From: Candidatus Sysuiplasma jiujiangense
GTDB lineage: Archaea > Thermoplasmatota > Thermoplasmata > Sysuiplasmatales > Sysuiplasmataceae
Length of the DNA stretch: 64,000 nt
NCBI GenBank assembly: GCA_019721075.1
Contig: JAHEAD010000007.1
Coordinates: 1-64,000, forward strand
Reading direction: 5' to 3'
Positions 1,338-43,289 of the stretch are shown here, piece after piece. The stretch's first letter is position 1, and each line of letters opens with the position of its first letter. The notes beneath the pieces were generated by a model that was given only the letters and a program-made list of their open reading frames with translations, had not been told where the DNA came from and ran no database searches. The position numbers and the translations under genes are program-made.

Positions 1338-4300
1338 TCATGTCGTCTTTGTCGGTGATGACCTCACCTGTTTCGAAGGTTGAATCCAGCACCAGCACAC
1401 CCTCTTAAGCTTCAATCCGCCTGCCTGTCCTGCTGGTTCCTGACCAGAATCGGTCGACTCTTGCAGCAGTTCCCTCGCCTTATCGATGAGCCTGCCCTCC
1501 TTCCTTGCCTTATTCAGGGCAGAAACAAGACTCTGAGTGTTCGATCTGGCTCTGAACCTTGCAGCAAGTGTTTCGCCATCTCCCCCACTGTTTGCAAGTT
1601 CGTCAAATATCTCCTTCACTGCTTTTGTCGCTCTTAGAGGGGTACCTCCCGTCGTTATCTCTCTCTGCCGTCTTTTCTTAAGCTCCATTCTGAGCGATTC
1701 CTTCATTTCCCTCATTCTTTCAAGCAAACGACCGTAATCGATCCTCTCTCCATGATTTTCGGCTTCTCCATCAAGCAGTATGGAGACAGTGTCATTAATA
1801 GAGTCGCTTATTTCCCTGTCACCGTCGAAGTATTTGGTACGCCAGTAAAGATCTTGGCCGTTCCTGAACAGCACGAACATGGCGTCCCTGTCCCCCTTCT
1901 TGAAGGCGCCGATGCCATCGGGTATCCTCTCCAGCCATTCGATGGATCTGTCCTGGATTATCTTTGCGAGTGTGTCGAGAGGATCGCTCGTGAACTGCTC
2001 GAGCTCCCGAGAAAGCTTCTCTATTGCAGAAAAGTTTCCCTTTGACATTTCAATCTGTAATCCAAAATCCTTTGGATCCGCTTCCTCGCCGAGTGTCGTT
2101 GCGTCGATACCAATTGTGGCGCGTATAGCATCTAACTTCTTGTAAAGCTTCCCCATGAGGCCTAGAAAATGTTCCAGCGTTTTGGGATCGTCACGGTTGC
2201 CGTTCACGGAGAGTATGTTGCTCACATACACCTTGTCGTGGACGGAACCCATTCTGTCGACTCTTCCAATCCGCTGTATTAGAACGACAGGATTCCATGG
2301 AAAATCGTAGTTGACCACGTACTGCGCGTTTTGCAGGTTCTGCCCTTCGCTCAGAACATCGGTGCTGACGAGTATGCCGCCATTGTTCTGGAACTCTTCG
2401 ATTATCGCCGATTTCTCTCTGTTGCGCCCTTTTGCATCCCTGCAGATGCTTCCGGTAACCATCATTACGGGCAATGCAGCCGATGACTTGGAAAGCCTGT
2501 CGTAAAGGTATGTCGCGGTTGAGGTAAACTGCGAAAATATTATGACGCCGTTGTTATCATCTGAGGCAATGGCTTTGGTTATGACGCTTAATCTCGATGC
2601 AAAGGTAGCGAACTTCGGATCATTTGCAGGAATTTCCGAGAGAAGTGAGTCGATAGTCGTAACGTCTTCCCTGCACTTTGCAACAAACTGCGCCACTTCA
2701 TCCCGGGTCAGTTTGCACCTTTCCTTGATTTCCGAGTACTTCCCTTCCCTGAAGATATCTTCGGGAGAGGGCAGCTCCTCGTCAAAATCGAACAGCGGAT
2801 CGTTCCTGAATGATGGCGGAATGAAATAGCTCTTTTCGTCAGCGAATGCGATTGCCTTTTCGATATAGTCACGGAGCATGCCTAGTGTATCCTCAAAAGC
2901 TTTCGAGCTGCTTTCGAGGCGTTTGAATATACCGATGATTACAATTGCCTTGACCAGCTTCTTCAGGTTGTCCCTTTTGCTTTGCTCAACCGCCTTCGGG
3001 ACTGGGGTACCGTCCGGCATTTTCAACTGACCACTTAGCCTGTCTATGGACAGGTCGTAGAACATGAAATTCATTTTGTCGAGCAGCGCGTCTATCTTCT
3101 CGTAATCAATCCTGGCATCGTATCGCGTCAGCGGATCCATGTCAAGTTCCCTTTCGGGAAATTTGAGCTTCCCTTCGCCGAGCGCAACCGCGAGCCTTCT
3201 CGAATGCCTCACGATGAAGCGCTCAAGAACCTTCTCCAAATCGATGGGCTCTCCCCTCAGCCATCTCTTCTGGTTTGCAGTGAAGAAACCCTTGAGCGTC
3301 TGGTCAAGGATGTCGGTAATGCAATCCTCGGGAAGGTAAAGCGACAGGAGCGAATACAAATCCATCAGGCTGTTATTTACCGGTGTGGCGGTTGCTAGCA
3401 CCACCTGTGCCTTTGTCCTGAGCAGCAGATCCCTTAGAGCACCGTACCTGTTAGTGGAGGGGCGCCTGAAATCGTGCGCTTCATCCACAATGACGAGGCC
3501 CACGTCGGAAAACTTCTTGTTGTCGAAATAATCAGGATGATCGGAAAGTGACTCGGTTGAGATGGTTTCGTCGAGAGAGATATGCGTCTTGGCAAATTCA
3601 TGTTTCCATGTGGTGGCAAGGACGCTTGCTGGTGCTATGAGAAGGCATTTCTTTCCCTCCCTTATGGCATTCAGGGCAAGGCTGAGAGCTATCCTGCTCT
3701 TGCCAAGTCCGGTAGCGTCTGCAACAACCACGCCGTTGTACCGCTCAAGCATGAGCAGCGCGTCCCTGACTGTCAGTTTCTGGTGCGGCATAAGTGTCTC
3801 GAGCACCTTCTGACTTTCCACAGAAACATCAAGTGTATCCTTGTAAGTTTCATACAGTGCCTTTGCAGCTACCTCATAAGGGCTCCTTGTGGTAACGTAA
3901 TTCTTCAGTACCGACAGAAACTCCTCCTTGAAATCTGTCGAATGCTCCCACGCACCGTTAAACCATGACACAAGTTCATTGACCACTTCCCTATCCGTGT
4001 TCAGCATGTTGAGTTCCCTGTTGGTGACAAGGCCTCCCTTTGTGAAATTACTTGACCCCACGACGCCTATCCCTCTCTTCAGGTTGTCCAGTGCAGGAGC
4101 GGCACCGATGTACGCCTTGCCGTGAAAGAAGGGACCCTTCAGAGCCCTGACACTGACCCTTTCACCTTCAAAGAATTCAACTGCGTTCTGCAGAAGTTCG
4201 AAATAACGGCGTTCGTCCTCGTTTTCCTCAAGCTCTCTGATAATCTCCTCTTCCCATTTTACGCTTTCAGTCTGGGCGCGGCCAAGAAGAAACTTCAGTG

Positions 4301-4445
4301 GTTTGTTCCTGAGGGCGTCCTTCAGTTCACCATATCCATTTACGTTGAAGTAGGCGGATGCAATGGCGATATCATCCGCATCTTCAAGAGCGTTATTCAG
4401 GGTTGCAGACAGTTTTTCCTTTGAATTGTCAATTATCCTGGTCAT
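1338..4445 (-). CDS. PLD-nuclease / SNF2-family helicase fusion (restriction-modification associated)
   Basis: N-terminal PLD motifs ASAYF, FHGKAYI, VGSSNFT..GL..NRELN; SF2 motifs ADATGLGKS, DEAH, TATP, STDVLSEGQNLQ, NYDFPWNP..LIQRIGRVDR. Confidence 0.9.
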   Translation of the reverse strand: MTRIIDNSKEKLSATLNNALEDADDIAIASAYFNVNGYGELKDALRNKPLKFLLGRAQTESVKWEEEIIRELEENEDERRYFELLQNAVEFFEGERVSVRALKGPFFHGKAYIGAAPALDNLKRGIGVVGSSNFTKGGLVTNRELNMLNTDREVVNELVSWFNGAWEHSTDFKEEFLSVLKNYVTTRSPYEVAAKALYETYKDTLDVSVESQKVLETLMPHQKLTVRDALLMLERYNGVVVADATGLGKSRIALSLALNAIREGKKCLLIAPASVLATTWKHEFAKTHISLDETISTESLSDHPDYFDNKKFSDVGLVIVDEAHDFRRPSTNRYGALRDLLLRTKAQVVLATATPVNNSLMDLYSLLSLYLPEDCITDILDQTLKGFFTANQKRWLRGEPIDLEKVLERFIVRHSRRLAVALGEGKLKFPERELDMDPLTRYDARIDYEKIDALLDKMNFMFYDLSIDRLSGQLKMPDGTPVPKAVEQSKRDNLKKLVKAIVIIGIFKRLESSSKAFEDTLGMLRDYIEKAIAFADEKSYFIPPSFRNDPLFDFDEELPSPEDIFREGKYSEIKERCKLTRDEVAQFVAKCREDVTTIDSLLSEIPANDPKFATFASRLSVITKAIASDDNNGVIIFSQFTSTATYLYDRLSKSSAALPVMMVTGSICRDAKGRNREKSAIIEEFQNNGGILVSTDVLSEGQNLQNAQYVVNYDFPWNPVVLIQRIGRVDRMGSVHDKVYVSNILSVNGNRDDPKTLEHFLGLMGKLYKKLDAIRATIGIDATTLGEEADPKDFGLQIEMSKGNFSAIEKLSRELEQFTSDPLDTLAKIIQDRSIEWLERIPDGIGAFKKGDRDAMFVLFRNGQDLYWRTKYFDGDREISDSINDTVSILLDGEAENHGERIDYGRLLERMREMKESLRMELKKRRQREITTGGTPLRATKAVKEIFDELANSGGDGETLAARFRARSNTQSLVSALNKARKEGRLIDKARELLQESTDSGQEPAGQAGGLKLKRVCWCWIQPSKQVRSSPTKTT

Positions 4446-7400
4446 TTATTGCCCCCTGTGATTTCAATCCCCTGTCGGCCTTGATCAAACGATCATCAAC
4501 TAGGTCAACGTATTCTTTATAAAACTCAGCTAGTGGAAAATTATTGGCGCCTATAGCTCTTAAGACTTCGATATCTAACTTTTGTCTGTCTTCCATTTTG
4601 ACCTCTTCAAAATATCTCTTTGCTTCTCTGTTCAATGAAACACCAACGTTTGCTAAATCCAGCTTGCCCAAATCCGGTGCGGGCATCTGTTCGTAGTCAT
4701 TTACCTGAATCTTTAATGCACCTCCACCCATTCTCTTACCAAGAAGTTCTTTACAAACGTGAAAGATTGATGAATTCATATACAAGAAAATAGTCGCCAC
4801 TTCAGTCTGCTTTGGATAAATCAGTACAAACATATCAGAAGCCAATGTGGAATTAACAGAGTATAAAGTGAAATGCCGATCGTTTACAACTTCGTTAGAA
4901 ATCAAATTCGCAGGATCGAGCCTTCGAAGATTATACCACTTTGGAGAGTTGTTTGAAACACTCTGCAATTTGTGGACCCCAATCACAACACTTCCTTTCT
5001 TGGTTCCTTTCTGAATGACGAACTCGCGGTTCATCGCTTGATGAATATACCTAAGCGAAAATTGACCTGGTTCTCTCTTAATGTCTGGATAAAATGCGTA
5101 CTTTTTGGGCTTCTTAATGATGTAAGTATTAGTCTCCTTTGGGCTCCTTACAACCGGAATGACGTCGGTACTATCTATTACGTATCTTTCTCTGCTCTCA
5201 TTTTCTACATAGATGAGCCCTTGATCCTTCAACCCACTTTCTTCCTTCGTCTTCACTCCCCACTCTTCGAACTTCTTCGGATTTGCAAGATAATCGGTCT
5301 CGTATAGGTGGCTTACGTCCTTCATGTAGAAGAAGTCGTTAGCGCCGGTTTTAATCCCAAATTTAATTTCAGCAAAATCTCCGAGTTTGTGTGTGAGTTT
5401 TGGAAGTATCTTTTCCATGAACACCTTCGGCGCGCGAAGGTAGAACCACTTACCGGGCTGGAGGCCCTTCCTCGGGATGGCGTAATGCAGTCGAACCTTT
5501 TCCAGCCCATAAGTCTCGAGGTAAGTAAAATCTATGGCGGGTTTGCTGTTTGGCCGCGAAGTGCATACGGTAACAACGGTGTTGATGTCTGCACCAAAGC
5601 TCCTCTCCCTCTGGCCGTATATTGCGACTATATTGTCCTTTATCCGCCGCTGAAGGGTTATACCGTAACCAGTCTCAAGCCATTTGTCAGATGTTATGAC
5701 GGACAGGACACCATCGTCTGAGACAAGATTGAGCGCCCTGATGAAGAAATACGCATACAGGTCGGATTTCCTGTCGATGCCGAACTTGTCGGTGTAGTAT
5801 TTCTTCCTGGCCTGTGGAATGCCCTCCTGCCTTACGTACGGTGGATTCATGACCAGTATCTGAGCCTTTTGCGGCATGTGCATTTCGATGACAGATGGGC
5901 TGTTCCCCGTCCGCTTCGATATTTCAGCACTCAAGCGAGCCATTTCCTTTCTCAGTTTTGCCTTCTCATGTGGAGAGTGTTCATTCACATACACGGCGTG
6001 AATGCGGTTGTACTGCTCCCTGACCGACTCCGTTTCCTGGTCAAGCGTGCGCTGGCCATCAGGCAGCTGCAGCGAGTCGTCAATGGCGACAATGTTGAAA
6101 TCCAGATTCGGCAGCGGTTCAGGTTCCTTCTCGTCTATTATCAGCGAGAGCCAGAGCCTGAGTCGGGCAATCTCGATTGCCTCTGACTCTATGTCAAAAC
6201 CGTACAGGTTGGGCAATATTCTCTTCTTGTGTGCCTCCGGATCTGATTTCCACCCTACAATCGCTTCCGCCTCCTGTATCAGCGCTATGATCTCGTTCAT
6301 AATCACCAGAAGGAACCCGCCTGAACCAACTGCAGGATCTAGCACCCTCAAAGAGAGCAGTCTTTCACGCAATTCCCTGACTTCCTTCTCGCTCTTCCTG
6401 CTTTTCATGTCTGCGATGAGCGCATGCAATCCATCCCTGAATTTCTCACTCTTTTCAGCTTCTTCGACAGTATCATGGCTGCCGAGATATTCAGCAAGCG
6501 CCCTCCTGCAGATGAATGAGCTTTCATTCAAGGGCGTGTAGAACGTTCCTTTGCCGCCCCTTTCATTCTCCGGCAGCATGTTCTCGAAGACAGTTCCGAT
6601 CAGGGCTGGATCGATGCTTACCTCCAGTTCAAGAGGGGCTGTTTCATCAACTGTGAAATTAAACTGGTTGAAGAAGTCCTTGGCATCCCTGAACATGCCA
6701 TCCATTACACGGTCAAGTTTCCGTTCCATAGAATCGGTCATGTATTCCTCGCGTTCGAACAGGGAGCCGTTGAGGAAGGGGATGCCATCTGTACCCTCTC
6801 TGCTGAGGCTTTCATAGAAAAGCTCATTGAGATGCCTATAGCCTTCGATGGTGTCGATGAACCTCCTGTTCTTTCTCAGCCAGCCTTTCCTCTGCAGGAA
6901 ATAGAGGAACATGAGTCTGCCAAGGAATCTCTGCGCATACGATGTGCTGTGCTTTCCCAGAAACGGCCTGACTGCCTTCTCGATATCCTGATAGAGTCTC
7001 CGATAACCTTCGAAGAACTCTTCGCGCACTTTCTCATAGGGGAAGAATGAAGTGTCGTAGAGATGTGAAAGCTCTTGAGGGTTGTCAACGTATCTGATGG
7101 AGTTCAGCACTTCGATGTCCGTCCTGTAAAGCCGGTCGGCGAGTTTGAGTATCTTCGCCTCACCGTAAGCGCCTTTGCCCGGAACTATCACGGCAAAGGA
7201 TTCATACCTGTTTGTGAACAGCAGCAGCGGTTTCAGCAGCCTGTTCTCCTTCCAGCGTCTTGCCGTCTGGGTGCACAGACTCCTCGAGAAGCCGGAGCCC
7301 GAATCAACCTCCACGATCGCGATTTCAATGAAGCTGTTGGAAAACATGCTTAAAACTCTGGCAGGTTGAAAGTTAGGCGGGAACACTCGCTGTTTTCTCA

Positions 7401-7500
7401 ATGTTTCTATATCCAGCATCTCTTCTTTCACCGGATAACCCAACTGTTCCAGTTGTGATTTCCAGAAAGAGACGTTGAAATTTATGACATCGCCTGCCAT
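4429..7500 (-). CDS. Type IIG/Eco57I-like N6-adenine DNA methyltransferase with C-terminal target-recognition region
   Basis: GTFYTP, DPAVGSGGF (motif I), YGFDI..EAIEIARLRLWL, NPPYVRQE (motif IV), DLYAYF; overlaps the helicase start by 17 nt. Confidence 0.92.
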   Translation of the reverse strand: MAGDVINFNVSFWKSQLEQLGYPVKEEMLDIETLRKQRVFPPNFQPARVLSMFSNSFIEIAIVEVDSGSGFSRSLCTQTARRWKENRLLKPLLLFTNRYESFAVIVPGKGAYGEAKILKLADRLYRTDIEVLNSIRYVDNPQELSHLYDTSFFPYEKVREEFFEGYRRLYQDIEKAVRPFLGKHSTSYAQRFLGRLMFLYFLQRKGWLRKNRRFIDTIEGYRHLNELFYESLSREGTDGIPFLNGSLFEREEYMTDSMERKLDRVMDGMFRDAKDFFNQFNFTVDETAPLELEVSIDPALIGTVFENMLPENERGGKGTFYTPLNESSFICRRALAEYLGSHDTVEEAEKSEKFRDGLHALIADMKSRKSEKEVRELRERLLSLRVLDPAVGSGGFLLVIMNEIIALIQEAEAIVGWKSDPEAHKKRILPNLYGFDIESEAIEIARLRLWLSLIIDEKEPEPLPNLDFNIVAIDDSLQLPDGQRTLDQETESVREQYNRIHAVYVNEHSPHEKAKLRKEMARLSAEISKRTGNSPSVIEMHMPQKAQILVMNPPYVRQEGIPQARKKYYTDKFGIDRKSDLYAYFFIRALNLVSDDGVLSVITSDKWLETGYGITLQRRIKDNIVAIYGQRERSFGADINTVVTVCTSRPNSKPAIDFTYLETYGLEKVRLHYAIPRKGLQPGKWFYLRAPKVFMEKILPKLTHKLGDFAEIKFGIKTGANDFFYMKDVSHLYETDYLANPKKFEEWGVKTKEESGLKDQGLIYVENESRERYVIDSTDVIPVVRSPKETNTYIIKKPKKYAFYPDIKREPGQFSLRYIHQAMNREFVIQKGTKKGSVVIGVHKLQSVSNNSPKWYNLRRLDPANLISNEVVNDRHFTLYSVNSTLASDMFVLIYPKQTEVATIFLYMNSSIFHVCKELLGKRMGGGALKIQVNDYEQMPAPDLGKLDLANVGVSLNREAKRYFEEVKMEDRQKLDIEVLRAIGANNFPLAEFYKEYVDLVDDRLIKADRGLKSQGAINDQDN

Positions 7501-10629: not shown

Positions 10630-11628
10630 ATGACAGATCGTGTCAGTGGTGTGAGAAGGCAGATAGCAATACCTGACCTGATTATCAGCGAGTCGAATGT
10701 TAGGATGGGAGACATTGAACGGGACCAGCATGAAGTGGACAAGTTGGCAAAGAGTATCAGTGAAACTGGATTGCAAAACCCGCTTCGAGTGAGAGAGATC
10801 CCTGGGCAACCAGGCCAGTATGAAGTCTACGAAGGAAGCAGAAGGTTGAGGGCTCTAAAGCAGCTGGGCAAAAGTCACGCAGACTGTATTGTGTCAAATG
10901 TTTCAGATGCAGAAGCTACTCTTGCGTCCCTTCACGAAAACTTGGTCCGTGGAGAGATATCCGCACTGGAGATATCCAAAGGCATTTACAAGATCATGGA
11001 GCAGATCGAAGGAGGAGACATAACCAAAAGGAGAGAAGTTGCAAGGAGGTTAAACTGGTTTAAAGACGATGGTCGTCCTGATACCAATCGAGTGACGAAG
11101 ACGCTCAAGCTTGGCGAGTTTCAGGAAAAACTAGGTGGAAAGGTAGCGGTTAAGTACAGGACAAAAGGGGATGCCATGCGCAAGGAAAAGGTGATTCCGT
11201 GGGCAGTTGCAGAGCGACTGCAGACGATTCTTGAGAATCCCGTCGTGGAATCACAACTGCAATCATTAAAGGTGCCTGAACGTCAGAAGGACTACGAAGA
11301 TTATGTCATGCGACTGGCTAATGCTTATCGTCAAGTCAGAACAGGGAGAAGAAAGGTCTTTGAAGAACGGTTCATAGCCAATGCCAATCAAGATCCGGTA
11401 GAAACAGCGCAGGAAGTGGAACGAGAATCGATCAAAAGCCAACTCGTCACATTCCGCCTGGATCCGGAACTCTACGGGTGGATTGTACAGTTTGCAGCAA
11501 AGAACAACGTCACGAAGACTGAAGCAATTATTCGAATTATACAGGCACATAGGGCCCACCTCTCTTCTTCTGGTCGACAAGACCAGATAAACGACACTAA
11601 AATGACAGTGGAGGGTCAAACACTATGA
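10630..11628 (+). CDS. ParB/Srx-family protein with HTH and C-terminal ribbon-helix-helix-like domain
   Basis: LAKSISETGLQNPLRV, YEVYEGSRRLRAL (GxRR), SLHENLVR; C-terminal LVTFRLDPELYGWIVQFAAKNNVTKTEAIIRII. Confidence 0.85.
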   Translation: MTDRVSGVRRQIAIPDLIISESNVRMGDIERDQHEVDKLAKSISETGLQNPLRVREIPGQPGQYEVYEGSRRLRALKQLGKSHADCIVSNVSDAEATLASLHENLVRGEISALEISKGIYKIMEQIEGGDITKRREVARRLNWFKDDGRPDTNRVTKTLKLGEFQEKLGGKVAVKYRTKGDAMRKEKVIPWAVAERLQTILENPVVESQLQSLKVPERQKDYEDYVMRLANAYRQVRTGRRKVFEERFIANANQDPVETAQEVERESIKSQLVTFRLDPELYGWIVQFAAKNNVTKTEAIIRIIQAHRAHLSSSGRQDQINDTKMTVEGQTL

Positions 11629-11715
11629 AAGACGGGCTCAACTACAGCCGCAGAAGGTGCACCCGGCAATCATTTCTCCTTTCTATGGTTATCAAGCGGC
11701 ACCTTCTGATCAGGA

Positions 11716-11817
11716 ATATATTAATATATCGAAGTGATAATCAGTGATCACAATGAGCCCCGGTGTTCCCAAGGGGACGCCGGATGAAATAATCTTCTTT
11801 TCTTTTTTTTGTTTTTT
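11716..11817 (+). promoter_or_regulatory. TATA-like palindrome, then a GC hairpin and a long U-tract in the NYN gene leader
   Basis: ATATATTAATATAT 11716-11729; CCGGTGTTCC-CAAG-GGGACGCCGG stem 11760-11783 (two G-U pairs); T-rich run 11793-11817. Confidence 0.55.
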
Positions 11818-11833
11818 AAGTGGTGGGTTTTAG

Positions 11834-12433
11834 TTGGATAAGACTATTGTTTTCATAGATGATGGGTATCTCAGCAAGATTTCTAAGTTCCTAGGAGGAG
11901 GCACTTATCTCCAGATAGATATCAACCAATTCGCGATAAACCTAGCAAAGGCTCAGAACCTCTGGTGCGAAGAAGTCTATCTTTACACAGCTCCCCCTTT
12001 TCAATCTGCTGTTCCCACAACGGAAGAGGCAGAGAAGCGGGCGAGGTACGACCGCTTCACTTCTAGAGTGCGGAGGATTTCAGGCTTTAATGTCAGAGAA
12101 GGCAGACTGCAATACGTGGATGGTGAGTATCGCCAAAAGGGAGTAGATACGCTGCTCACAATGGATCTGCTCACGCTCACGAAAGAGAATTACCCTAACA
12201 TCAAGACCGTAATACTACTTGCATGCGACACCGACTTCGTGCCTGTTCTTCAGGAAATAAGACAAAATGGGGTCAAGATAATCCTTTATTACTTCACTGA
12301 TTACAAAAGGGGGTCCCTCTTTTCGATGTCCAATTACATTTTGACTGCTTGCGATCAGTGCGTGCTATTGGATATAAGCTACTTCACCATGAGTCTGCGG
12401 AAGCAGAGGTCAATTTCAAAGACCGAAGTATAA
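11834..12433 (+). CDS. NYN (LabA/DUF88, PIN-fold) ribonuclease
   Basis: VFIDDGY, QKGVDTLLTMD, ACDTDFVPV, acidic catalytic residues intact; TTG start after GTGGTGG. Confidence 0.9.
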   Translation: MDKTIVFIDDGYLSKISKFLGGGTYLQIDINQFAINLAKAQNLWCEEVYLYTAPPFQSAVPTTEEAEKRARYDRFTSRVRRISGFNVREGRLQYVDGEYRQKGVDTLLTMDLLTLTKENYPNIKTVILLACDTDFVPVLQEIRQNGVKIILYYFTDYKRGSLFSMSNYILTACDQCVLLDISYFTMSLRKQRSISKTEV

Positions 12434-12448
12434 CCACGACTGACTAAT

Positions 12449-12880
12449 CTAGTGCCGTGTTCAATAACTGAGTTCTGTCTCCTGAATTTCCAGATAACTC
12501 TTTTCCTTGCGGTTCTCCTGTCTCTCTTCCTCCTCTCCCTGTTCTCGAGCATCTCCTTCCTGTGCGCATTCTTGTACCTGATGGCACTCTGAAGTGCTGC
12601 ATCGACTTCCAGCCTTGATCTGTAGTCTGTATCCTTCAATGCCAGGCGCTGAATGTCACCTATGTGTGTTTCGACGGGATTGAGCCATGAAGCGTTTGTC
12701 GGTGTGGGTGCGAAGGAGACCCTGTTCTTCTTCGCCCATTTCATTATGTCCTCTGTTGAATGGACGGACAGGTTTTCCATTATCATGTGAATGCGCTGCT
12801 CCGCCGGATAGTGTCGTCGCAGCTCCTTGAAGAAGGAGAGTACGTTCTTCGCAGTCTTCCTTCTCCTCAGTCTCTGTCCA
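12449..12880 (-). mobile_element. IS630-family transposase 3' fragment with right end
   Basis: IHMIMENLSVH, PTPTNASWLNPVE (DDE_3); end CTAGTGCCGTGTTC shared with 35615 and 42538. Confidence 0.85.
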
Positions 12881-13122
12881 CCATCAACAATAGATGGGCA
12901 ATACACCTTAAAATGCTAAGCATAGGCGTAAATTCTACCCGAACCACAAACAGATATTAAGCGACAGTTTCTGGAATTGAATCATAGCAGATTGAGGCAG
13001 ATTTGAGACAATATCGTCTCTAGCACGATCAAGGAATCCACAGTGGCCTATTTGATGAGGTTTTCCGTGGCAATCATTATCCCCATTGGCAGAATACATA
13101 AGCAAATGCTTCAGAAACACCA

Positions 13123-15813
13123 TCAACCGTAAATCTTGGTCAACTCGCGGAATACCTGATCCAAATGTTTCAGACATAGTTCTTGGTCGGTTTTCCCATA
13201 CTTTGATAGATGTTCCGTCCTACCGCGTACGACGTTCCCTCTTGCGCTCCTAATCCATATCAAGCTATTAAGAGAGTCCATCCAGATGTGTTTAGACTTT
13301 AGGCATTCAAGTAATTTCCCAGTCACAAGTTGAGCGTGTTCAGCTCGCAATCTCCCTGAGCCAGTGACATATCTCTTCACACCATATTTGTCTTCGTAGA
13401 ACCACTCTTCTTTCTTCACGATAAGCGCATCAACATCAGTATTTCCTAACTTGCATAATATTGCAAACATCAGATTTTCAACACAGTCCCATGCCATAGA
13501 TATTATCTGGAATGGAGGCGCAGTGGACCGTCTCAAACTTATGTAAATTTCCCTTGCATTTTCGTAAAAGATTATGTCTGGACCCAGGAGTAAAGGACTC
13601 TTGAATCTTACCTCAAGATCATCATCCTTCGACTCGGGTGGGGTTGGATTGGTGGAATAGTAAGTCACAAAGTCCCTCACGGAGTAATTGTCCTTCCTCA
13701 ACCCTTTGAAGAGAGATTTCAACCCTTTGTTAGCAGCATAAACTGAGGAGCCATTGCTTAGCATAAGACTTCGATTCGCGATATACTTTAGTGGAGTAAT
13801 AAAGGAGGGTTGAACTTTGTCGGCAGGCAGACCACGCTCCACGAGTTCAATAAGGTAGTTCCATCCTTCTGCTGCATTCATTCCGCGTCTTTCCATCTCC
13901 AAGTAGTAGTGGTAGATGGATATCATGCCATCCCTAGCTTCAGAGTCAACGAGCACTAGTCTGTCAATGGATTTTCCAATGGCGTTGTCAAAATCTCTCT
14001 GGTATTGTTCGATGATAAAGTCCTTGGAAATCACGGTCTGCTTTTTTTGAGCTCCGTATCTGCAAATGGCTTCCGCAAGAATGAGTGCTTGCCGTGGATT
14101 GCCACCACTAAGCGTTCTAAACAAAGATGAGCAGCCTTGTGCGAACACTTTATCATAAGAGGATCCTGAGCTAATTAGTCGTCTTTCCAACAGGTTTTGT
14201 ACATCCTGAGTACTAAATGGAGACAGCTCCCATGCGTTTCGATAGCCCACGTATGAGAGTTCACTTGAACTTAGAAACTGACCCCACCTCTCTGCACATG
14301 CGAACACAACAATAGAAACCTCCCGCAATCTCGAAAGCAGATATTGCGAGCTTTTAAAGAAATCGACAACTAGTGGGTCTTTATCACTTGGCAACCTGTC
14401 AAGACTATCAACACAAATGATCTTCTTATTGCCGAGACGGACTGCCTCGACTATTCTCTCCGAGTCGATATCTTCACCTTTCCCTGTAACTCCTCTGTAT
14501 ATCGATTTGCAGACTATGTTGTAGATATCTGCTGAAGTCCTGACGTTCGAAATTCTGTCGGCGACGTCAGTCATGATCACGTCATACCTAGAATCAAATC
14601 TGCTCTTGATGCTTTGAAACAGTGTTGTCTTACCAAATCCTCTTCCTGCTATCAAGAGTTTTAACTCGCCGTTATTCCCACGCAGATAACCGCCAACTTC
14701 GCTTAAGATCGTTTTTGAAGAGGGTGTTTCAACGAATCTATCTGACCCAAAAGCCATTGGAATATCTATGAAAGGATTTCCGATGAATTTCCAATAAGAC
14801 ATCCAGTCATCGCCTTCGATGATGTCGGCATCCGAAGATGGAATGCTCTCAACTCTCTTGGGTGCGGCGGTAGTCAACCTTGGCCTGATAATATCGAGAA
14901 CACTTTCTGGAAGACCCTGCTTAACTGAGGATAGGGCCGAATCCGTAGTCTGTAGCTTTCGAGGGAAATGCAGTTTTATGTTATTATCCCATAATGCATC
15001 TTCAACGATTCCTAATTCCCTGCCAAGTTTTCCTAACAAATTCTCGGAGAGATATGAAATTACGGGTCCGCTTATTGAATCTGGATACGAAGCACAGATT
15101 CGAACTGAGCCGTTTTCGATAGTCACAGCATCGATGTAGTAGCAGTTGAGCCAATGAAGTATGGATTCAGGAGAAAGCCCATACTGACCTATCTTGCTCA
15201 TATCAACTCTCCTGAAGCTACAATCGAGTTCATCTGAAATCCTGAGCAAACCGGTAAGAACGCCAATGCGAACGTTGCCCTCGCCAAGAGGAGAATTTTC
15301 GTGGGGATCAAACTCAACGGACGATTGGTGCCGCTCACAGAGTGTAGCTACAAAGGGCAAATATCGACGAACACCACCATCGCTCAAACCTACCTCAAGA
15401 ATGTTGTCATTTCCCTTGGCAATTTCCCTGACTAGATATCCTGAAGCTTTCCCGTGAGATGCCCTTATTACCGCGTATTCGTCATTAGTGAGTTCATCTA
15501 CAGGCATATTGATACCATGGGCCCGGGGGACTTGCATTCCGACGTCATGAAACAAGACGGCTAATGCAAATATAAACAGCTCATCTTTAGTCAGTGATTT
15601 GGTGTCATTATTGGCCAAATTTTGGCCCAACAATCGATGAGCCACTGAAATGATGCGATCACAATGTGAAATTGAATGATCGGTGAAATTTGGCAGTAGA
15701 TTGTTATTAAGTATCTTAGTGAGTTTGTAGCGAACCTGCTTCATGGTTTGAAATTGGAAAAAGTGCAAATGATCCTCAAGCCAATTCCAATTATCAGGTT
15801 CTTCCTCCTGCAT
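13123..15813 (-). CDS. HD-CE phosphohydrolase + P-loop AAA+/STAND-like ATPase + C-terminal HEPN-like helical domain
   Basis: FTDHSISHCDR, LFHDVGM, IRASH, CERH, LRISDELD, LHW; GNPF, GRGFGKTT, ICVDSLD, SGGNPRQ; AWDCVENLM...WIRSARGNVVRG. Confidence 0.8.
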   Translation of the reverse strand: MQEEEPDNWNWLEDHLHFFQFQTMKQVRYKLTKILNNNLLPNFTDHSISHCDRIISVAHRLLGQNLANNDTKSLTKDELFIFALAVLFHDVGMQVPRAHGINMPVDELTNDEYAVIRASHGKASGYLVREIAKGNDNILEVGLSDGGVRRYLPFVATLCERHQSSVEFDPHENSPLGEGNVRIGVLTGLLRISDELDCSFRRVDMSKIGQYGLSPESILHWLNCYYIDAVTIENGSVRICASYPDSISGPVISYLSENLLGKLGRELGIVEDALWDNNIKLHFPRKLQTTDSALSSVKQGLPESVLDIIRPRLTTAAPKRVESIPSSDADIIEGDDWMSYWKFIGNPFIDIPMAFGSDRFVETPSSKTILSEVGGYLRGNNGELKLLIAGRGFGKTTLFQSIKSRFDSRYDVIMTDVADRISNVRTSADIYNIVCKSIYRGVTGKGEDIDSERIVEAVRLGNKKIICVDSLDRLPSDKDPLVVDFFKSSQYLLSRLREVSIVVFACAERWGQFLSSSELSYVGYRNAWELSPFSTQDVQNLLERRLISSGSSYDKVFAQGCSSLFRTLSGGNPRQALILAEAICRYGAQKKQTVISKDFIIEQYQRDFDNAIGKSIDRLVLVDSEARDGMISIYHYYLEMERRGMNAAEGWNYLIELVERGLPADKVQPSFITPLKYIANRSLMLSNGSSVYAANKGLKSLFKGLRKDNYSVRDFVTYYSTNPTPPESKDDDLEVRFKSPLLLGPDIIFYENAREIYISLRRSTAPPFQIISMAWDCVENLMFAILCKLGNTDVDALIVKKEEWFYEDKYGVKRYVTGSGRLRAEHAQLVTGKLLECLKSKHIWMDSLNSLIWIRSARGNVVRGRTEHLSKYGKTDQELCLKHLDQVFRELTKIYG

Positions 15814-31511: not shown

Positions 31512-34500
31512 TCAAAATGTGTAGACAAAGTCTACAGTTATTGTCCCGAAATAGTCAGGTCCCGGCGGATTGTTGCTTACCGCTTCGAGTACGTGCTGGT
31601 ATCCAGACTCAAGGACCAGCCTTCCATCCTGCGAGCCGTAGACAAGCGATGTGTATGTCTTCAGTGTGGTGCCCTTTATTGCCGTGATTGATGAGATAAT
31701 GCCGGCGACAGGGCTGGTAAGCTCGATGACGCCTGCAAAGAGATCGCCGCTTGTGTAGAGACTGTTGGAAACGGATGTTTCCGTCCTTGTTATGCCGTTA
31801 GCCGTTACGTTTGTGTAAAAGTGTGAAACATCGAAAGCCTCTGACATGTTGTTGAGGTACTGCGCGAACGGGCCATACATTGGGAAGCCGCCGTTTGTTG
31901 TCTGCGTGATTGTGAATACAAAACCGGTCTGCATCTCTATGGGGAAATAAGTCGTCTTTGCATTGATGAAAATATCATGCATCCCCTGCTCGTTGTAAAC
32001 TGTGACCATTCTGGATTGCGTCAGCTGATATCCTGTGAGGTTTTCCCACACAGGGCCTACCACATACTGGTCCATGGATGAAACTTCGCTTGTTCTCTTC
32101 GAGACTGTTATCGTTCCTGTCACTGTATGTATTGATGATGAGAAGCCAAAGTTGTTAATGACGTTCTCGTAAAAGAAGGAGTTCACCGATGCTGTGCCGC
32201 CTGAAGGCAGCGGGACATTTGTGACTATCCGCGGCTTGCCCATATTTGCAAAGTAGCTTACAGGCTGCGCACCGGTTACAGCTGGGTTTGTGTAAATAAG
32301 CAGATTTGCACTGACCATCCAGTTGGCAGCATACGGAAACACGCCTGTCATGTTGAACTCCATGTTGCCAGAGTTTTCAATAATGCCCAGTGCGGCCGTG
32401 ACGTTCACATTTGTTGGCACTTCAGAAAGGTCATACGGTGCCGGTAGAGGTCTCCATGCGAACAGGTCAATGCCGCCGGTGTTGACGAGATACCACGGCA
32501 GTACGTTGGCTATGAGCTTGTTTCCGGAGTAAACTGTTACTGCTCTGTAGGAGGGTTCGTCGCCGTACCAGAACTCGTCAAAGGTGTTACCGCGCTGGAA
32601 AACCTGGAGCGTTGCAGCAGCAGTATCGGATGGTACTGAAACTGGCACCGTTACCTCTGGATGCCCATAGGTAAGACTCGCCCTGGTGACGAGCGGAACG
32701 ACCATATTGGGAATGCCTGCCGGTTTAGAGCCCGGATAAAAGCTCAATGTCGCGTTTGTGTAATACGAACCGTTCACCGCGCCATTCGGGCTGTGCCATA
32801 TCAGATTTACACTCCCATGGAAGAGCGATTCATATTCTGTGAGGTTGGCGACTATTGTCCAGTTTCCGTTTTCAGGCTGGACGCTGTGCCACACGAGAAC
32901 GTTGTTAACGATCAGAAATTCGACAACATCGTAAACAGTTCCATATGCCTGGCCGTTGTATGTAAGGATGATACTCTGGAAGGATTCGTTCGGTACCTGG
33001 ATAGTTGTATACAGTGTTGTGTTCGGTGTCAAACTTCCGACTGTTTTCAGATCATGGACAAGTGTATAATTGATCGGTGCTATATCCGGGATTCGTGTAG
33101 GCTGCCTGACCTGTATTGTTGTATTCGGCGGCAAGTTCAGGGGGACATAATCCCCGCCAGTGCCTATGAGACCTCCATCGTTGTAAGGGATGGTACCGTT
33201 GTAATTCCACCAGAGGTTTCCTCCCTGATATGTTCCATGAATGATGCTGCCAGTGAGCGCATAGCCATTTACGTAATTTATCGCACTCGCGGGTTGCTTT
33301 GATATGTTCCATGTGTTGGAGAAGATTCTTGGGCTTTCCGCAGTGAAACTGACAGGCTGAAGAAACATGTTATTATAGACAAGATTGCCGGAAGACCGTA
33401 CCAGTAAACCCGAACCCAGGTCTGTAAACATATTGCTTTCAAACGTGTTTCCCCACACTGTGTTGTCTGTGCCTCCCAGGATTGCGACCGAGCCTCCGTT
33501 CCTGTGCCCGACAAAGGAGTCCACAGCACTTGCATGTAGTCTGTTGCCGCCCACCAACATATTAGAACTGTCGAGCAATATTATGCCATAGGGAAGAAAA
33601 CTATTGGTGAAGTAGCCGCTCACTTCCGATTTCCAGAGTGAGATGTTCGAGTCGGCATAGAACTCATAATTCAGATAATTGTACACAGCCGGCAGAGAAT
33701 CAGCACTGGCCGTCTGTGTGCCGTACATGACTCTTAACAACGGCATTCCGTTCATTTCCACATGTGCAGAAACATTCCAGAAAAATACGCCAGCGAACAC
33801 GGGGAACAACCAGTCGTTAAGCTCATCAAACAGCGGACTTATGGAGGCGACTGAAGAGACGCCGCTAAGCATATATGGGCTCGACAACGATCCGTTGCCG
33901 CCGCTCGCAATATACGCAATCTGGCTGTTGCCAAAAGCGTAAAGCGGCGTGTATATGCCTGCATTCCGGTTTCTTCGCAGATTGAAATTCTTTCCAGCGG
34001 AAATGGTGAAACTCACCGGCCTGTAGTAGCTGAGTAGTATCTGACCGGAAACCTCACCGTAAGGAACATGGAAGTCGTAATTTCCAGAGAGTGGCAGCGG
34101 ATTCCATGCATCGGCCGAAGCGTTGAATGTCGATCCGCCGCTGACAAACATAAATGCGTTTGAAGGAGAAACCCGACCTCCGAACCCGCGCGGCATGGAA
34201 GACGACACGTTCCACATGCCGTACAGCAGCGAAGGACCTTCGTTAAGGAAGGCTGTTGTTCCATTCCACCACACATTGGCGCCGGTGGATGTTTCACCGG
34301 TATCGGTTCCGAAATTGAACGCCGAAGGAACGCTGACAAGTCCAGAGGATGAAGTGTTATAGTACTTCAGTGCCATTGTCGCATTTATGTTGTAGATTGT
34401 TGTGGTGCTTCCTCCACCCGGACCGCCTATCATTATTTCCGCATCGTACAGGAATCCCATGTGCGTGTGAGTCCCTGCGTTAAGCAGTGGAGGTGTAGTC

Positions 34501-35414
34501 ACGGTTCCGCTGATCAGGTAATGCGGTGCCGGAGCGCTGTAACCGGGAGGCATGCCACCCGTTGAATTGAACAGCACTTCATCAAAAGTCCCTGATGATA
34601 TAACACCGGCGTCCATGAGTGTGTAGTTGAAGAACACAGCGCTGTCCCCGTTTATCAGTGATGCGTTTGTGTAAAGATCCACGGTTGCAGGCAGAGCCAC
34701 ACTGAAACTCGGACCCTGAGTTATGTAAACCTCGTTGCCGACGACTCTTCCCTTTCCCTTTGCTATGCCATTTTTCGGGAATGTGCCGGCTGAGGATGAA
34801 AAATTCCATATGTTTAAAACAAATTTGATTCGGTGGAAGTTGTTGCTGTAAACAATCACGTTTTGTGTCCAGTATGTGTAATTCGTTACACCGAAGAGGG
34901 TAACATTTGTAAGAACAGTGTTAAGCTGGATGCTGCCGCTTGTCTGCTGCGCCGACGACATGCTGGATGAGCTGAGATTGTTCACAGTCATTGTCCCTTC
35001 AATACTGCTCGTGGTCAGGTTGTAGCCTACGATGGTACCGTTCTGATTCTTAAGCCCGAAATCACCGATGCCCATCGGTGCGGGAGCAACGGGATAGAGA
35101 GGCTGGACATGTCCGTCATTCATAGTGACAGGCGGATTAAAATTGGGCAGGTAAATATCACTGGTGGGCGTACCTTCAGTTTCCAGGGAATTGAGCAACG
35201 CGTTTACTCTGTCATTGTATCTGTTTTTTGGCACCCTTGTGACATGAGACACAGCGTTTCGCTGATATGTATACTGAGGTAATACAGCGGTTGCGGGATT
35301 CGTTAAAGTTTTTTGAGACGCAACGCTGTTCCATCCACCCAGAACAACACCTGCAGGTAAAACGAACAGCACTGCAATTGCAAAAACTGTATACTTCAAA
35401 ATCGAGTCTTCCAT
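31512..35414 (-). CDS. Secreted thermopsin + beta-helix + peptide:N-glycosidase A (PNGase A-like) fusion
   Basis: Thermopsin motifs (PAPMGIGDFG, YWTQNV, GGPGGG, FGTDTGET); NTVWGN/LVYNN beta-helix; PNGase A motifs YD..., DEFWYGDEPSYR, PWYLVNTGGIDLFAWRP from about 33130 down. Confidence 0.85.
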   Translation of the reverse strand: MEDSILKYTVFAIAVLFVLPAGVVLGGWNSVASQKTLTNPATAVLPQYTYQRNAVSHVTRVPKNRYNDRVNALLNSLETEGTPTSDIYLPNFNPPVTMNDGHVQPLYPVAPAPMGIGDFGLKNQNGTIVGYNLTTSSIEGTMTVNNLSSSSMSSAQQTSGSIQLNTVLTNVTLFGVTNYTYWTQNVIVYSNNFHRIKFVLNIWNFSSSAGTFPKNGIAKGKGRVVGNEVYITQGPSFSVALPATVDLYTNASLINGDSAVFFNYTLMDAGVISSGTFDEVLFNSTGGMPPGYSAPAPHYLISGTVTTPPLLNAGTHTHMGFLYDAEIMIGGPGGGSTTTIYNINATMALKYYNTSSSGLVSVPSAFNFGTDTGETSTGANVWWNGTTAFLNEGPSLLYGMWNVSSSMPRGFGGRVSPSNAFMFVSGGSTFNASADAWNPLPLSGNYDFHVPYGEVSGQILLSYYRPVSFTISAGKNFNLRRNRNAGIYTPLYAFGNSQIAYIASGGNGSLSSPYMLSGVSSVASISPLFDELNDWLFPVFAGVFFWNVSAHVEMNGMPLLRVMYGTQTASADSLPAVYNYLNYEFYADSNISLWKSEVSGYFTNSFLPYGIILLDSSNMLVGGNRLHASAVDSFVGHRNGGSVAILGGTDNTVWGNTFESNMFTDLGSGLLVRSSGNLVYNNMFLQPVSFTAESPRIFSNTWNISKQPASAINYVNGYALTGSIIHGTYQGGNLWWNYNGTIPYNDGGLIGTGGDYVPLNLPPNTTIQVRQPTRIPDIAPINYTLVHDLKTVGSLTPNTTLYTTIQVPNESFQSIILTYNGQAYGTVYDVVEFLIVNNVLVWHSVQPENGNWTIVANLTEYESLFHGSVNLIWHSPNGAVNGSYYTNATLSFYPGSKPAGIPNMVVPLVTRASLTYGHPEVTVPVSVPSDTAAATLQVFQRGNTFDEFWYGDEPSYRAVTVYSGNKLIANVLPWYLVNTGGIDLFAWRPLPAPYDLSEVPTNVNVTAALGIIENSGNMEFNMTGVFPYAANWMVSANLLIYTNPAVTGAQPVSYFANMGKPRIVTNVPLPSGGTASVNSFFYENVINNFGFSSSIHTVTGTITVSKRTSEVSSMDQYVVGPVWENLTGYQLTQSRMVTVYNEQGMHDIFINAKTTYFPIEMQTGFVFTITQTTNGGFPMYGPFAQYLNNMSEAFDVSHFYTNVTANGITRTETSVSNSLYTSGDLFAGVIELTSPVAGIISSITAIKGTTLKTYTSLVYGSQDGRLVLESGYQHVLEAVSNNPPGPDYFGTITVDFVYTF

Positions 35415-36238: not shown

Positions 36239-36649
36239 TCATTGCAGCCTTACATCTATACCCATGCATTGTATCTCCTCTCTCCTAATTCCGAATTCCT
36301 GATCAAGCGTGATTAATGTGCCAGCGCCTGTTTCAGAACAGGCAGCCAGATGCAAAAGATCCAGTGTTTTCATCCTGACAGAGAACGAAATCTCCGCCGC
36401 TCTCTTGAATACCTTGCCCATGTCAATACTCTTCAGCTCAAATCCAAGCCTGTCAAGGTACTGCACGTATGCTTCAATCTCCTCCTCCCGCAAGTTGGTA
36501 GTCTTCGCCATCACGGACCTCATTTCAAGGACTGTAACCATGGATATTGCCATTTCCTTTGACTCACGGGTCAGCCGCAACGCAGTATCGTGATTTATGT
36601 CTGCAGGATTGATGAGTGAAAGGACTACGTTCGTGTCGATATAGTCCAA
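36239..36649 (-). CDS. vapC: VapC-like PIN-domain toxin
   Basis: YIDTNV, TVLE, MKTLDLLHLA, LITLD; acidic tetrad intact. Confidence 0.88.
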   Translation of the reverse strand: MDYIDTNVVLSLINPADINHDTALRLTRESKEMAISMVTVLEMRSVMAKTTNLREEEIEAYVQYLDRLGFELKSIDMGKVFKRAAEISFSVRMKTLDLLHLAACSETGAGTLITLDQEFGIRREEIQCMGIDVRLQ

Positions 36650-42725: not shown

Positions 42726-43289
42726 ATGAGCCTGACCTACTATGACATCATTACTCTGACATTCGGGGAATCAGAATTCACTTCCGATGAACTGGCTGCA
42801 AGGACCGGCAGCACGAGGGCTCCAAAGCTTCTGAATGAGCTCAAGATGAGGGGCTATGTCATGAGGACGGCGAGAGGCAGATACCGGGCGTTGAAGCCCT
42901 CTGAAAGGCCCGACCTCCGCGAAAATGAGTGGAACAGGGCGAGGAAGATCATACTTGCAGGCCCTGAGCCCAAAGCATGGACCGGTACCAGTGCGGTAGA
43001 GTTATGGACCGGCATGAGATACTGTCTTGCTCCGTCTGTTTATCTCAGGGAATTTCATATTGCCATTCCCGAAGGCAGAAGTTCAATGTGGAAGAACTAC
43101 CTCAGGTCGCATGGTGTTCCAACAGGCGGAAAGAGGAAGATTGGTGTCATTGTAAAACTCTACCCTTCAAGGAACCTGCGAATAGAACACCTTCTTGGAG
43201 AACCGGTGATTTCCAGGGAAGAGACCGTCAGGATAATAAGAGAGCATCCCTCGGTGTATGCCTCTGCAGAAGGTCTGCTGATTTCATGA
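42726..43289 (+). CDS. AbiEi-like wHTH antitoxin/regulator
   Basis: FTSDELA...LLNELKMRGYVMRTARGRY wHTH; WTGTSAVELW. Confidence 0.7.
   Translation: MSLTYYDIITLTFGESEFTSDELAARTGSTRAPKLLNELKMRGYVMRTARGRYRALKPSERPDLRENEWNRARKIILAGPEPKAWTGTSAVELWTGMRYCLAPSVYLREFHIAIPEGRSSMWKNYLRSHGVPTGGKRKIGVIVKLYPSRNLRIEHLLGEPVISREETVRIIREHPSVYASAEGLLIS

What the first reader, a model, noticed from the sequence alone, without database searches (positions are those of the whole stretch)
12935..15813. HD-CE + AAA+/STAND ATPase + HEPN-like fusion: candidate single-protein antiviral system
Seen: all HD-CE metal ligands present, a central P-loop ATPase (NPF, GxxGxGKT, hhhhD, GGNPR), a helical linker, and a terminal domain shaped like HEPN whose R-x4-H appears as RGNVVR (His replaced by Arg). 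GC is low (21/60 at 13441-13500). A short ORF starts in a TGATG overlap at 13123 and ends next to the IS630 breakpoint, perhaps a damaged partner gene. Known: HD-CE domains were described in conflict systems mostly fused to HSP90-like ATPases, and STAND NTPases (Avs) oligomerise to activate N-terminal effectors. Inference: an effector-ATPase-sensor protein with a nucleotide-degrading HD effector and an inactive HEPN reused as sensor or dimeriser. I do not recognise this architecture as a named system.
Basis: partly seen in the sequence, partly recalled or inferred. Interest (0 to 1): 0.72.

Follow-up and report, generated by a model that had tools for sequence, protein, structure and literature searches.

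The report
Archaeal HD–ATPase–HEPN candidate defence protein
One rare archaeal gene joins a nucleotide-cutting enzyme, a replication-initiator-like ATPase switch and a remodelled RNase-fold domain, probably a stand-alone antiviral protein of a known general kind with an unusual sensor end, untested in the lab.

Summary
The architecture is real. Window 13123-15813 (-) encodes 896 aa: an HD-CE phosphohydrolase (Pfam E 9e-23; metal ligands invariant in 31 of 31 near-full-length sequences), a Cdc6/Orc1-like AAA+ ATPase with lid and winged helix (Z 18.1), and a C-terminal HEPN fold (Z 13.8). It belongs to a conserved, sparse family (0 of 9 family genomes, 2 of 400 class genomes) with no PADLOC match. 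The HEPN histidine is lost, but E779, R858 and N860 and another histidine (H883) are kept in 26-27 of 27 core members, so 'inactive' is likely, not shown. Relatives without HD either keep an intact HEPN motif and Walker B glutamate, or add a C-terminal Schlafen domain: effectors are swapped on one ATPase-wH-HEPN chassis. Defence neighbours occur at 3 of 10 independent loci, mobile genes only at 2, none at 5. The short downstream ORF has no homologue and is probably not a gene. Best reading (0.6): a single-protein immune switch whose ATPase-HEPN part senses infection and releases HD-CE nucleotide hydrolysis. It is a new variant of the known effector-plus-STAND/ORC-Cdc6 kind. The paper defining HD-CE could not be read, so prior description is not excluded.

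The parts
13123..15813 (-). 896-aa HD-CE + Cdc6/Orc1-like AAA+ + winged helix + HEPN-fold protein (whole gene)
   Evidence: full-length homologues at about 24-81% identity
14944..15762 (-). HD-CE metal-dependent phosphohydrolase domain, aa ~18-290; H46-x3-H50, H89-D90, R117, H120, H162, D194
   Evidence: Pfam PF24391; invariance in 31 of 31; model pLDDT 93.8; nearest solved folds Ppx/GppA C-terminal HD part Z 12.4 and class I cNMP phosphodiesterases Z 10-12
13990..14808 (-). AAA+ ATPase core and lid, aa ~336-608; NPF, AGRGFGKT, DSLDR, R545, GNPR
   Evidence: Cdc6 7jgr_G Z 18.1 rmsd 3.3 over 246; TnsC Z 14.9; MuB Z 14.5; motif tallies
13639..13989 (-). helical domain with predicted winged helix, aa ~609-725; conserved Y-x2-Y-x-EMERR
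   Evidence: secondary structure of the model; alignment to Cdc6 1fnn spans 340-710; R642/R643 in 26-27 of 27
13126..13590 (-). HEPN-fold domain, aa 742-896, with a beta-hairpin insert (D808-x2-G-x2-R814); motif R858-G-N-V-V-R863 lacks the His
   Evidence: 2hsb_A Z 13.8, 1ufb_A Z 11.9, sacsin HEPN 3o10_A Z 11.9; weak Pfam HEPN hit in relative P0040, E 0.0032; tallies
12935..13123 (-). 62-codon ORF starting in the TGATG overlap; probably not a gene
   Evidence: only self hit; no counterpart in homologue loci; no Pfam/NCBIfam/PADLOC/PHROG hit
12444..12873 (-). IS630-family transposase remnant (neighbour, not part of the system)
   Evidence: DDE_3 and NF033545; DNA homology limits in related genomes
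1338..7500 (-). neighbouring PLD-SNF2 helicase and Eco57I/type IIG-like methyltransferase pair (defence context)
10630..12433 (+). neighbouring ParB-family gene and NYN-domain gene (island context)
   Evidence: the ParB is 31% identical over 277 aa to the ParB just upstream of the homologue in L002
16367..17596 (+). adjacent divergent AAA_14+DUF4143 gene, matches PADLOC candidate PDC-S01
   Evidence: E 2e-163

Best explanation
A stand-alone, horizontally spread anti-virus/anti-plasmid protein built as effector - switch - sensor. Shown computationally: the three folds, intact HD metal ligands, an ATP-binding site with sensor-2 Arg but no Walker B Glu, and a HEPN pocket that lost its His but keeps E, R and N. 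Inferred: at rest the protein is autoinhibited in a nucleotide-bound state. An infection cue, most likely nucleic acid or a nucleotide product bound by the winged helix and the basic HEPN pocket, drives the Cdc6/STAND-like ATPase to oligomerise. This clusters the N-terminal HD-CE domains, which hydrolyse a phosphoester bond of a cellular nucleotide and stall virus and host. The H-x3-H spacing and the PDE-like fold hint at phosphodiesterase-type chemistry (spacing comparison recalled, not tested). Substrate and trigger are unknown.
For: HD ligands are invariant in 31 of 31, while the HEPN motif is intact in only 2 of 45 and wholly lost in the outer clade, so HD is the common output. In the nearest HD-CE proteins the C-terminal slot holds TPR (28 of 62), STAND NTPases (4 of 62), HEAT, FGE, TIR or CHAT modules typical of immune sensors and effectors. 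The same chassis occurs without HD, with an intact HEPN (P0175) or with a Schlafen AlbA_2 domain (P0135, P0157, P0123). Patchy presence: 0 of 9 family genomes, 1 full and 1 partial in 400 class genomes. Low G+C. Decay at 2 loci: a frameshift in L010 and a 3' remnant in G449. L006 lies between a type I R-M/AbiC cluster and a BglII-like nuclease, near a Schlafen gene and a methylase; L002 has ParB and a HEPN pair; the window has R-M-like, NYN and PDC-S01 genes. DS-8, a metallophosphatase+NACHT single protein, needs both domains for phage defence (PMC13092281, passages).
Against: 5 of 10 independent loci show no defence or mobile neighbour (L004, which is short; L007; L008/L010; G431 over 28 kb among hydrogenase and glycine-cleavage genes; G449). 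There is no background rate for this count, and part of the G431/G449 neighbourhood was judged from sequence by eye. No PADLOC model matches the query. The arginine-finger position is not conserved (R 17, K 10 of 42), which weakens a Cdc6-like ring. No TPR/WD40 sensor. No phenotype, expression or substrate data.
Confidence: 0.6

Rival explanations
1. Defence protein in which the HEPN is still an RNase with a rebuilt active site (E779, R858, N860, R/K863 and an alternative His, H883). It would be a dual effector, or HD-CE would degrade a nucleotide signal to keep the RNase off.
For: In the 27-member core clade E779 27/27, R858 27/27, N860 26/27, H883 26/27. One nested member keeps RNNVLH (P0016). 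The HEPN survey notes HEPN-T members that lack the motif His but keep a His elsewhere (PMC3710099, passages).
Against: The motif is wholly lost in the outer clade while HD stays intact. The His position holds R/K in 26 of 27. Whether H883 faces the pocket could not be checked (no coordinates available to scripts).
Confidence: 0.17
2. A non-immune signalling or housekeeping enzyme: an ATPase-regulated phosphodiesterase/phosphatase that clears a second messenger, alarmone or polyphosphate, like non-defence STAND regulators.
For: Nearest solved folds are the Ppx/GppA HD part and cNMP phosphodiesterases. Half of the loci sit among metabolic genes. Only 198 of 589 STAND clades were called defence-associated (PMC12803255, section 4).
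Against: Very patchy distribution, effector swapping, low G+C, decay, and no shared metabolic neighbour across loci.
Confidence: 0.13
3. Selfish or mobile-element cargo: a self-regulated toxin that stabilises an integrated element, or a TnsC/ExeA-like element ATPase with an accessory enzyme, with no benefit against viruses.
For: Integrase (L011), IS (L003, window) and related ParB genes (L002, window) lie nearby. The ATPase fold is close to TnsC and MuB.
Against: No constant transposase or integrase partner. No match in plasmid, phage or viral collections (these collections are poor in archaea and the pattern scan is insensitive).
Confidence: 0.1

Closest known systems
HD-CE nucleotide-targeting conflict effectors (Pfam PF24391; Nicastro et al. 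2023, PMC10681802, not held, content recalled)
   Same: N-terminal HD-CE above the Pfam cut-off, fused to an NTPase module as in other HD-CE proteins (NB-ARC, NACHT, nSTAND5 and AAA_22 fusions seen).
   Different: No HSP90 module and no TPR repeats; ends in a HEPN fold. Whether that paper or its supplement lists this architecture could not be checked.
Avs / bacterial NLR-like STAND systems (PMC12803255: abstract, passages and section 4 read; supplements unreadable)
   Same: Tripartite order effector - NTPase with GxP motif and winged helix - C-terminal module; swappable effectors; patchy spread.
   Different: The C-terminal module is about 155 aa of HEPN fold, not TPR/WD40/FGE and below the 400-aa sensor size surveyed there. 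The ATPase is nearer Cdc6/Orc1 than NB-ARC (Z 18.1 vs 13.2). No Avs model hit in PADLOC 2.0.
DS-8 (metallophosphatase + NACHT; PMC13092281, passages)
   Same: Single protein, N-terminal phosphoesterase plus P-loop switch, substrate unknown.
   Different: Calcineurin-like versus HD fold; NACHT versus Cdc6-like ATPase; no HEPN reported in the passages read.
HINPO systems (bioRxiv 10.64898/2026.10.19.760177, section 22 read)
   Same: Combine an ORC-CDC6/STAND ATPase, proposed DNA sensor, with a HEPN domain and an inactive enzyme domain proposed as sensor.
   Different: Multi-gene, centred on ParA with an inactive nucleotidyltransferase; HEPN is the proposed effector; no HD domain.
Cdc6/Orc1 initiators and ExeA/TnsC-type AAA+ ATPases
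   Same: AAA+ core, lid, winged helix, sensor-2 Arg; weak hits to TIGR02928 (13 of 38 members) and TIGR03015 (32 of 38).
   Different: All hits far below cut-offs; Walker B Glu absent; flanked by HD-CE and HEPN.
HEPN superfamily, HEPN-T / sacsin type (PMC3710099, passages)
   Same: Fold match to 2hsb, 1ufb and sacsin HEPN; N-terminal E and motif R kept.
   Different: Motif His replaced by Arg/Lys; hairpin insert; C-terminal to an ATPase. The STAND-HEPN fusions in the table passages read are described as mostly active and TPR-linked.

Membership tests
HD-CE (PF24391) | Score above the curated Pfam cut-off | tested here: met
   81.7 bits vs 27
HD-CE (PF24391) | Conserved H...HD...H...H...D metal ligands | tested here: met
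   invariant in 31 of 31 and in 71 of 71 wider HD-CE sequences
HD-CE (PF24391) | Nucleotide phosphoesterase activity | not testable with these tools
   needs an assay
HSP90-linked HD-CE systems | HSP90-like ATPase fused or adjacent (recalled) | tested here: not met
   the central domain is a P-loop AAA+; no HATPase hit in the flanking genes scanned
STAND NTPases / Avs | P-loop NTPase followed by a GxP helical domain and a winged helix | tested here: met
   G571-N-P573 in 42-43 of 44; predicted fold
STAND NTPases / Avs | N-terminal enzymatic effector | tested here: met
   HD-CE
STAND NTPases / Avs | C-terminal repeat sensor (TPR, WD40 or similar) | tested here: not met
   no repeat hit; the C-terminus is HEPN fold
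STAND NTPases / Avs | Match to a named Avs or other defence profile | tested here: not met
   PADLOC 0 families for the query; NCBIfam anti-phage models only far below cut-off, e.g. DS-41 in 15 of 38 members
STAND NTPases / Avs | Ligand-triggered oligomerisation and phage defence | not testable with these tools
   needs experiments
Cdc6/Orc1 initiators | AAA+ plus lid plus winged-helix fold | tested here: met
   top Foldseek and VIA hits
Cdc6/Orc1 initiators | Family profile score and Walker B Glu | tested here: not met
   TIGR02928 best scores about 34 bits vs cut-off 181; D-S/N-L-D-R in 38 of 40
HEPN superfamily | HEPN helical fold | tested here: met
   Z 13.8, rmsd 2.5, 121 of 126 residues of 2hsb_A, plus two further HEPN structures; a helical domain, so Z is near the caution line, but sequence motifs and relatives agree
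HEPN RNases | R-x4-6-H catalytic motif | tested here: not met
   RGNVVR; His in 2 of 45 aligned relatives
HEPN RNases | RNase activity, possibly through an alternative His | not testable with these tools
   H883 conserved in 26 of 27 core members; position relative to the pocket unknown
HINPO | ParA with an inactive nucleotidyltransferase in the locus | tested here: not met
   none among the window or homologue neighbours scanned

The most novel reading that the evidence does not exclude
An NLR-like archaeal immune receptor built on a replication-initiator ATPase, in which a former HEPN RNase effector became the ligand sensor (His to Arg/Lys, pocket kept) after new effectors were attached at either end: HD-CE at the N-terminus, Schlafen at the C-terminus. 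The presumed older form (active Walker B, intact HEPN, zinc-ribbon insert) still exists. It would sense RNA, DNA or a nucleotide rather than a phage protein. The direction of change is inferred; the tree has no outgroup root.
Probability: 0.3. Interest if true: 0.75.

Novelty: new variant of a known kind. Interest (0 to 1): 0.52.

Why it matters
I found no tested HD-CE system in the papers searched and no close solved HD-CE structure, and archaeal innate immunity is thinly described. This family gives a compact single-gene test case with clear point mutants. It also gives a natural series (intact HEPN without HD; HD with remodelled HEPN; HD with degenerate HEPN; remodelled HEPN with Schlafen) to test whether an effector nuclease can be recycled as a sensor. 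If the trigger is nucleic acid, it widens what STAND-like receptors recognise beyond phage proteins.

Tried and rejected
Short ORF as partner gene: rejected. ATGA-type overlaps also follow the stop in 3 of 9 homologue loci, because the protein ends Y-G-stop, and they open short ORFs unrelated to the window's. Conserved partner gene: none across 10 loci; a related ParB occurs at 2. HEPN homodimer prediction (aa 736-896, two copies): score 0.13, no answer, no evidence either way. Expression: no RNA holder listed and nothing laid from 3 runs, no evidence either way. Pattern scans of genome contigs and viral contigs found nothing; they are insensitive, since G431 holds a full homologue. tblastn of plasmids and phages: no match. 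Phylum sample of 400: no full-length homologue besides the window's; one search drew the same sample again and added nothing. Sequence search of solved structures: only weak ORC1/Cdc6-type hits. Protein atlas: nearest clusters are AAA_22-type ATPases, one with HEPN_Swt1 in 11% of members, a lead only. Earlier scan findings: none. Paper searches listed no paper describing this architecture; the defining HD-CE paper is not in the library, and the supplements of PMC12803255 could not be read. DS-41: only weak ATPase-region similarity.
Full report
Observation. The finding's coordinates cover one 896-aa ORF at 13123-15813 on the minus strand and a short ORF behind it. The host is inferred to be an acidophilic Thermoplasmata-type archaeon from two thermopsin genes in the window; this label is inference, not a tool result. 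Pfam gives HD-CE at aa 40-233 (E 9e-23) and a weak AAA_22 hit. PADLOC gives nothing, and NCBIfam gives only sub-threshold ATPase hits. It is the only HD-CE gene found in the genome.

Family. Eleven proteins of 873-903 aa are 38-81% identical over nearly the full length. The HMMER search of 50% representatives extends this to full-length relatives at 26-36%, and a profile search adds six or seven more. The architecture is therefore conserved and not a chance fusion. It is rare: 0 of 9 other genomes of the family, one full and one partial copy in 400 class genomes, and no full-length copy in a 400-genome phylum sample. These are samples, so this means 'not found in those searched'.

Anatomy. The AlphaFold2 model has mean pLDDT 85. 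Residues 336-608 match Cdc6/Orc1 best (Z 18.1, rmsd 3.3, 246 residues), then TnsC, MuB and BrxC, with the plant NLR 6j5t at Z 13.2. The match to Cdc6 1fnn runs to residue 710, through a predicted winged helix. Residues 742-896 match three HEPN structures, best 2hsb_A at Z 13.8 over 121 of 126 residues. The N-terminal domain folded alone (pLDDT 93.8) is closest to the C-terminal HD part of Ppx/GppA (Z 12.4) and to class I cNMP phosphodiesterases (Z 10-12); dNTPases such as SAMHD1 score about 8. No solved structure is close (rmsd 3.5 or more in the top rows), so the substrate cannot be read off.

Motifs. H46, H50, E78, H89, D90, R117, H120, H162, D194, R202 and W221 are invariant in 31 of 31 near-full-length sequences, several of them close kin. 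Walker A K395 is invariant (39 of 39) and sensor-2 R574 is kept in 42 of 44. Walker B is D-S/N-L-D-R in 38 of 40 and the arginine-finger position varies, which fits a slow switch better than a motor (inference). The HEPN R-x4-H is complete in 2 of 45 sequences (P0016, P0040). In the 27-member core clade, E779 and R858 are invariant, N860 is kept in 26, the His position is Arg or Lys in 26, and H883 is kept in 26. In the outer clade the motif is gone while HD is intact. So the pocket is under selection in the core clade, as a binding site or as a rebuilt active site, and HD is the one enzyme common to all full-length members.

Modularity. P0175 (596 aa) starts at the ATPase, aligns through the HEPN (23% over 598 columns, E 3e-43), has a DELD Walker B, RNNVLH and a zinc-ribbon insert, and lacks HD (Walker B read from its cluster mate P0040). 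P0135, P0157 and P0123 also lack HD, have a degenerate HEPN region and end in Schlafen AlbA_2. In an ATPase-wH tree of 46 rows, the P0040/P0117 pair and the Schlafen trio are each fully supported clades outside the remaining rows, but the separating branch is weak (89/78) and the root is a midpoint, so the order of events is not shown. Among HD-only hits, 62 of about 108 were scanned: 28 carry TPR, 4 a STAND-type NTPase, single ones HEAT, TIR, CHAT, FGE or TIG, and none HSP90 or HEPN at E<=1e-5. HD-CE with an NTPase is thus a recurring theme; the HEPN end is what sets this family apart.

Context. In the window the gene lies in a 17-kb stretch with a PLD-SNF2 helicase and an Eco57I-like methyltransferase, IS remnants, ParB, NYN and a PDC-S01 match. 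In the 9 related genomes, DNA matches to this stretch are IS pieces and short fragments, none in the HD-CE gene. The gene is 43.8% G+C against 49.6%. After merging near-identical loci (L005=L006, L008~L010, L009~L011) and leaving out L012, which matches only the ATPase, there are 10 independent loci. Three have defence neighbours (window; L006 with type I R-M, AbiC, a BglII-like nuclease, Schlafen and a methylase; L002 with a HEPN pair and ParB). Two have only mobile genes (L003 IS, L009/L011 integrase). Five have neither (L004, L007, L008/L010, G431, G449). Several contigs are short, no background rate was computed, and part of the G431/G449 surroundings was judged by eye. L010 carries a one-base deletion after the HD domain, and G449 holds only the 3' part, as expected of genes that turn over.

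Short ORF. Read from the overlap it has 62 codons, matches only itself in 5.8 billion proteins (only lengths 34-109 searched), and has no counterpart behind 9 of 9 homologues. The overlap is a by-product of the Y-G-stop ending. The IS630 homology stops near 12873, about 60 bp beyond it. I treat it as not a gene.

Mechanism. Most likely (0.6) a one-gene immune switch: the ATPase-wH-HEPN block occupies the slot that TPR or STAND-TPR sensors fill in related HD-CE proteins, detects a cue of infection, oligomerises and releases HD-CE to destroy a nucleotide. Folds, motifs, modularity and distribution are shown; autoinhibition, trigger, oligomer, substrate and defence are inferred. Rivals: HEPN still an RNase through H883 (0.17), a non-immune signalling enzyme (0.13), selfish element cargo (0.10).

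Comparison. It works like DS-8 (phosphoesterase + NACHT; PMC13092281, passages) and like Avs/NLR receptors (PMC12803255, passages and section 4), but fails Avs membership on the repeat sensor and on profile matches. HINPO systems join an ORC-CDC6 ATPase and a HEPN in a multi-gene ParA system without HD (10.64898/2026.10.19.760177, passages and section 22). The HEPN survey lists STAND-HEPN fusions as mostly active and allows for non-catalytic nucleic-acid-binding versions (PMC3710099, passages). The BREX survey (PMC12839542, passages) describes HEPN N-terminal to DUF499 ATPases, a different layout. Clover (PMC12265719, passages) is an HD dNTPase defence of another HD family. Passages of 10.64898/2026.01.15.699771 gave only the citation. 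Ten paper searches listed no description of this architecture, but the defining HD-CE paper (PMC10681802) is not held and the STAND clade tables could not be read; either may already list it.

Verdict. A real, conserved, rare family; a new variant of a known kind. Interest 0.52. The boldest reading still open, a HEPN effector recycled as a nucleic-acid or nucleotide sensor on an initiator-like ATPase with swappable effectors, has probability about 0.3 and would merit 0.75.

Noticed in passing
proteins P0175/P0040/P0117: HD-less relatives of about 596 aa: Cdc6-like ATPase with canonical Walker B, winged helix and a HEPN with intact RNNVLH and a zinc-ribbon insert; a candidate single-gene HEPN RNase system in its own right (P0117 is a 393-aa piece lacking the HEPN).
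   Followed up: partly
proteins P0135, P0157, P0123: Same ATPase-wH-HEPN-like chassis ending in a Schlafen AlbA_2 domain (Pfam E about 1e-18 to 1e-20); no PADLOC match.
   Followed up: partly
window 10630-11628 and L002:1-867: Related ParB-family proteins (31% over 277 aa, including the C-terminal part) lie near the HD-CE gene at two loci, with no ParA seen; may mark a shared mobile element or be a nucleotide-targeting ParB.
   Followed up: partly
window 1338-7500 (-): PLD-SNF2 helicase (1035 aa) coupled to an Eco57I/IIG-like adenine methyltransferase (1023 aa); R-M-like pair, only a fragment of it matched in one same-genus genome.
   Followed up: partly
L006:11261-18306: Defence island with a BglII-like nuclease, a Schlafen protein, a 581-aa protein with an N-terminal nucleoside 2-deoxyribosyltransferase-like domain, ThyX and a methylase; the deoxyribosyltransferase-ThyX neighbourhood may be a nucleotide-related system.
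   Followed up: no
L010:7749-10552: Homologue split by a one-base deletion just after the HD domain; the same two pieces appear in two database records of different contig length.
   Followed up: partly
L012:132-4273: A distant ATPase relative lies divergent to a metallo-beta-lactamase-fold gene and an Apea-like HEPN gene.
   Followed up: no
window 36242-36649 and 42977-43987: A PIN-domain gene and an AbiEii-like nucleotidyltransferase gene further along the window, probably toxin-antitoxin parts.
   Followed up: no
window 31515-35414 (-): 1300-aa secreted protein joining a thermopsin domain and a PNGase A-like domain, next to a kumamolisin-type protease.
   Followed up: no
L015, L016: Two same-phylum genomes hold a 435-463 aa ATPase with a similar N-terminal NPF motif, behind a KaiC-like-looking gene and a pilin/archaellin-like gene (judged by eye); weak matches to the family's ATPase, probably an ExeA-like housekeeping relative.
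   Followed up: no
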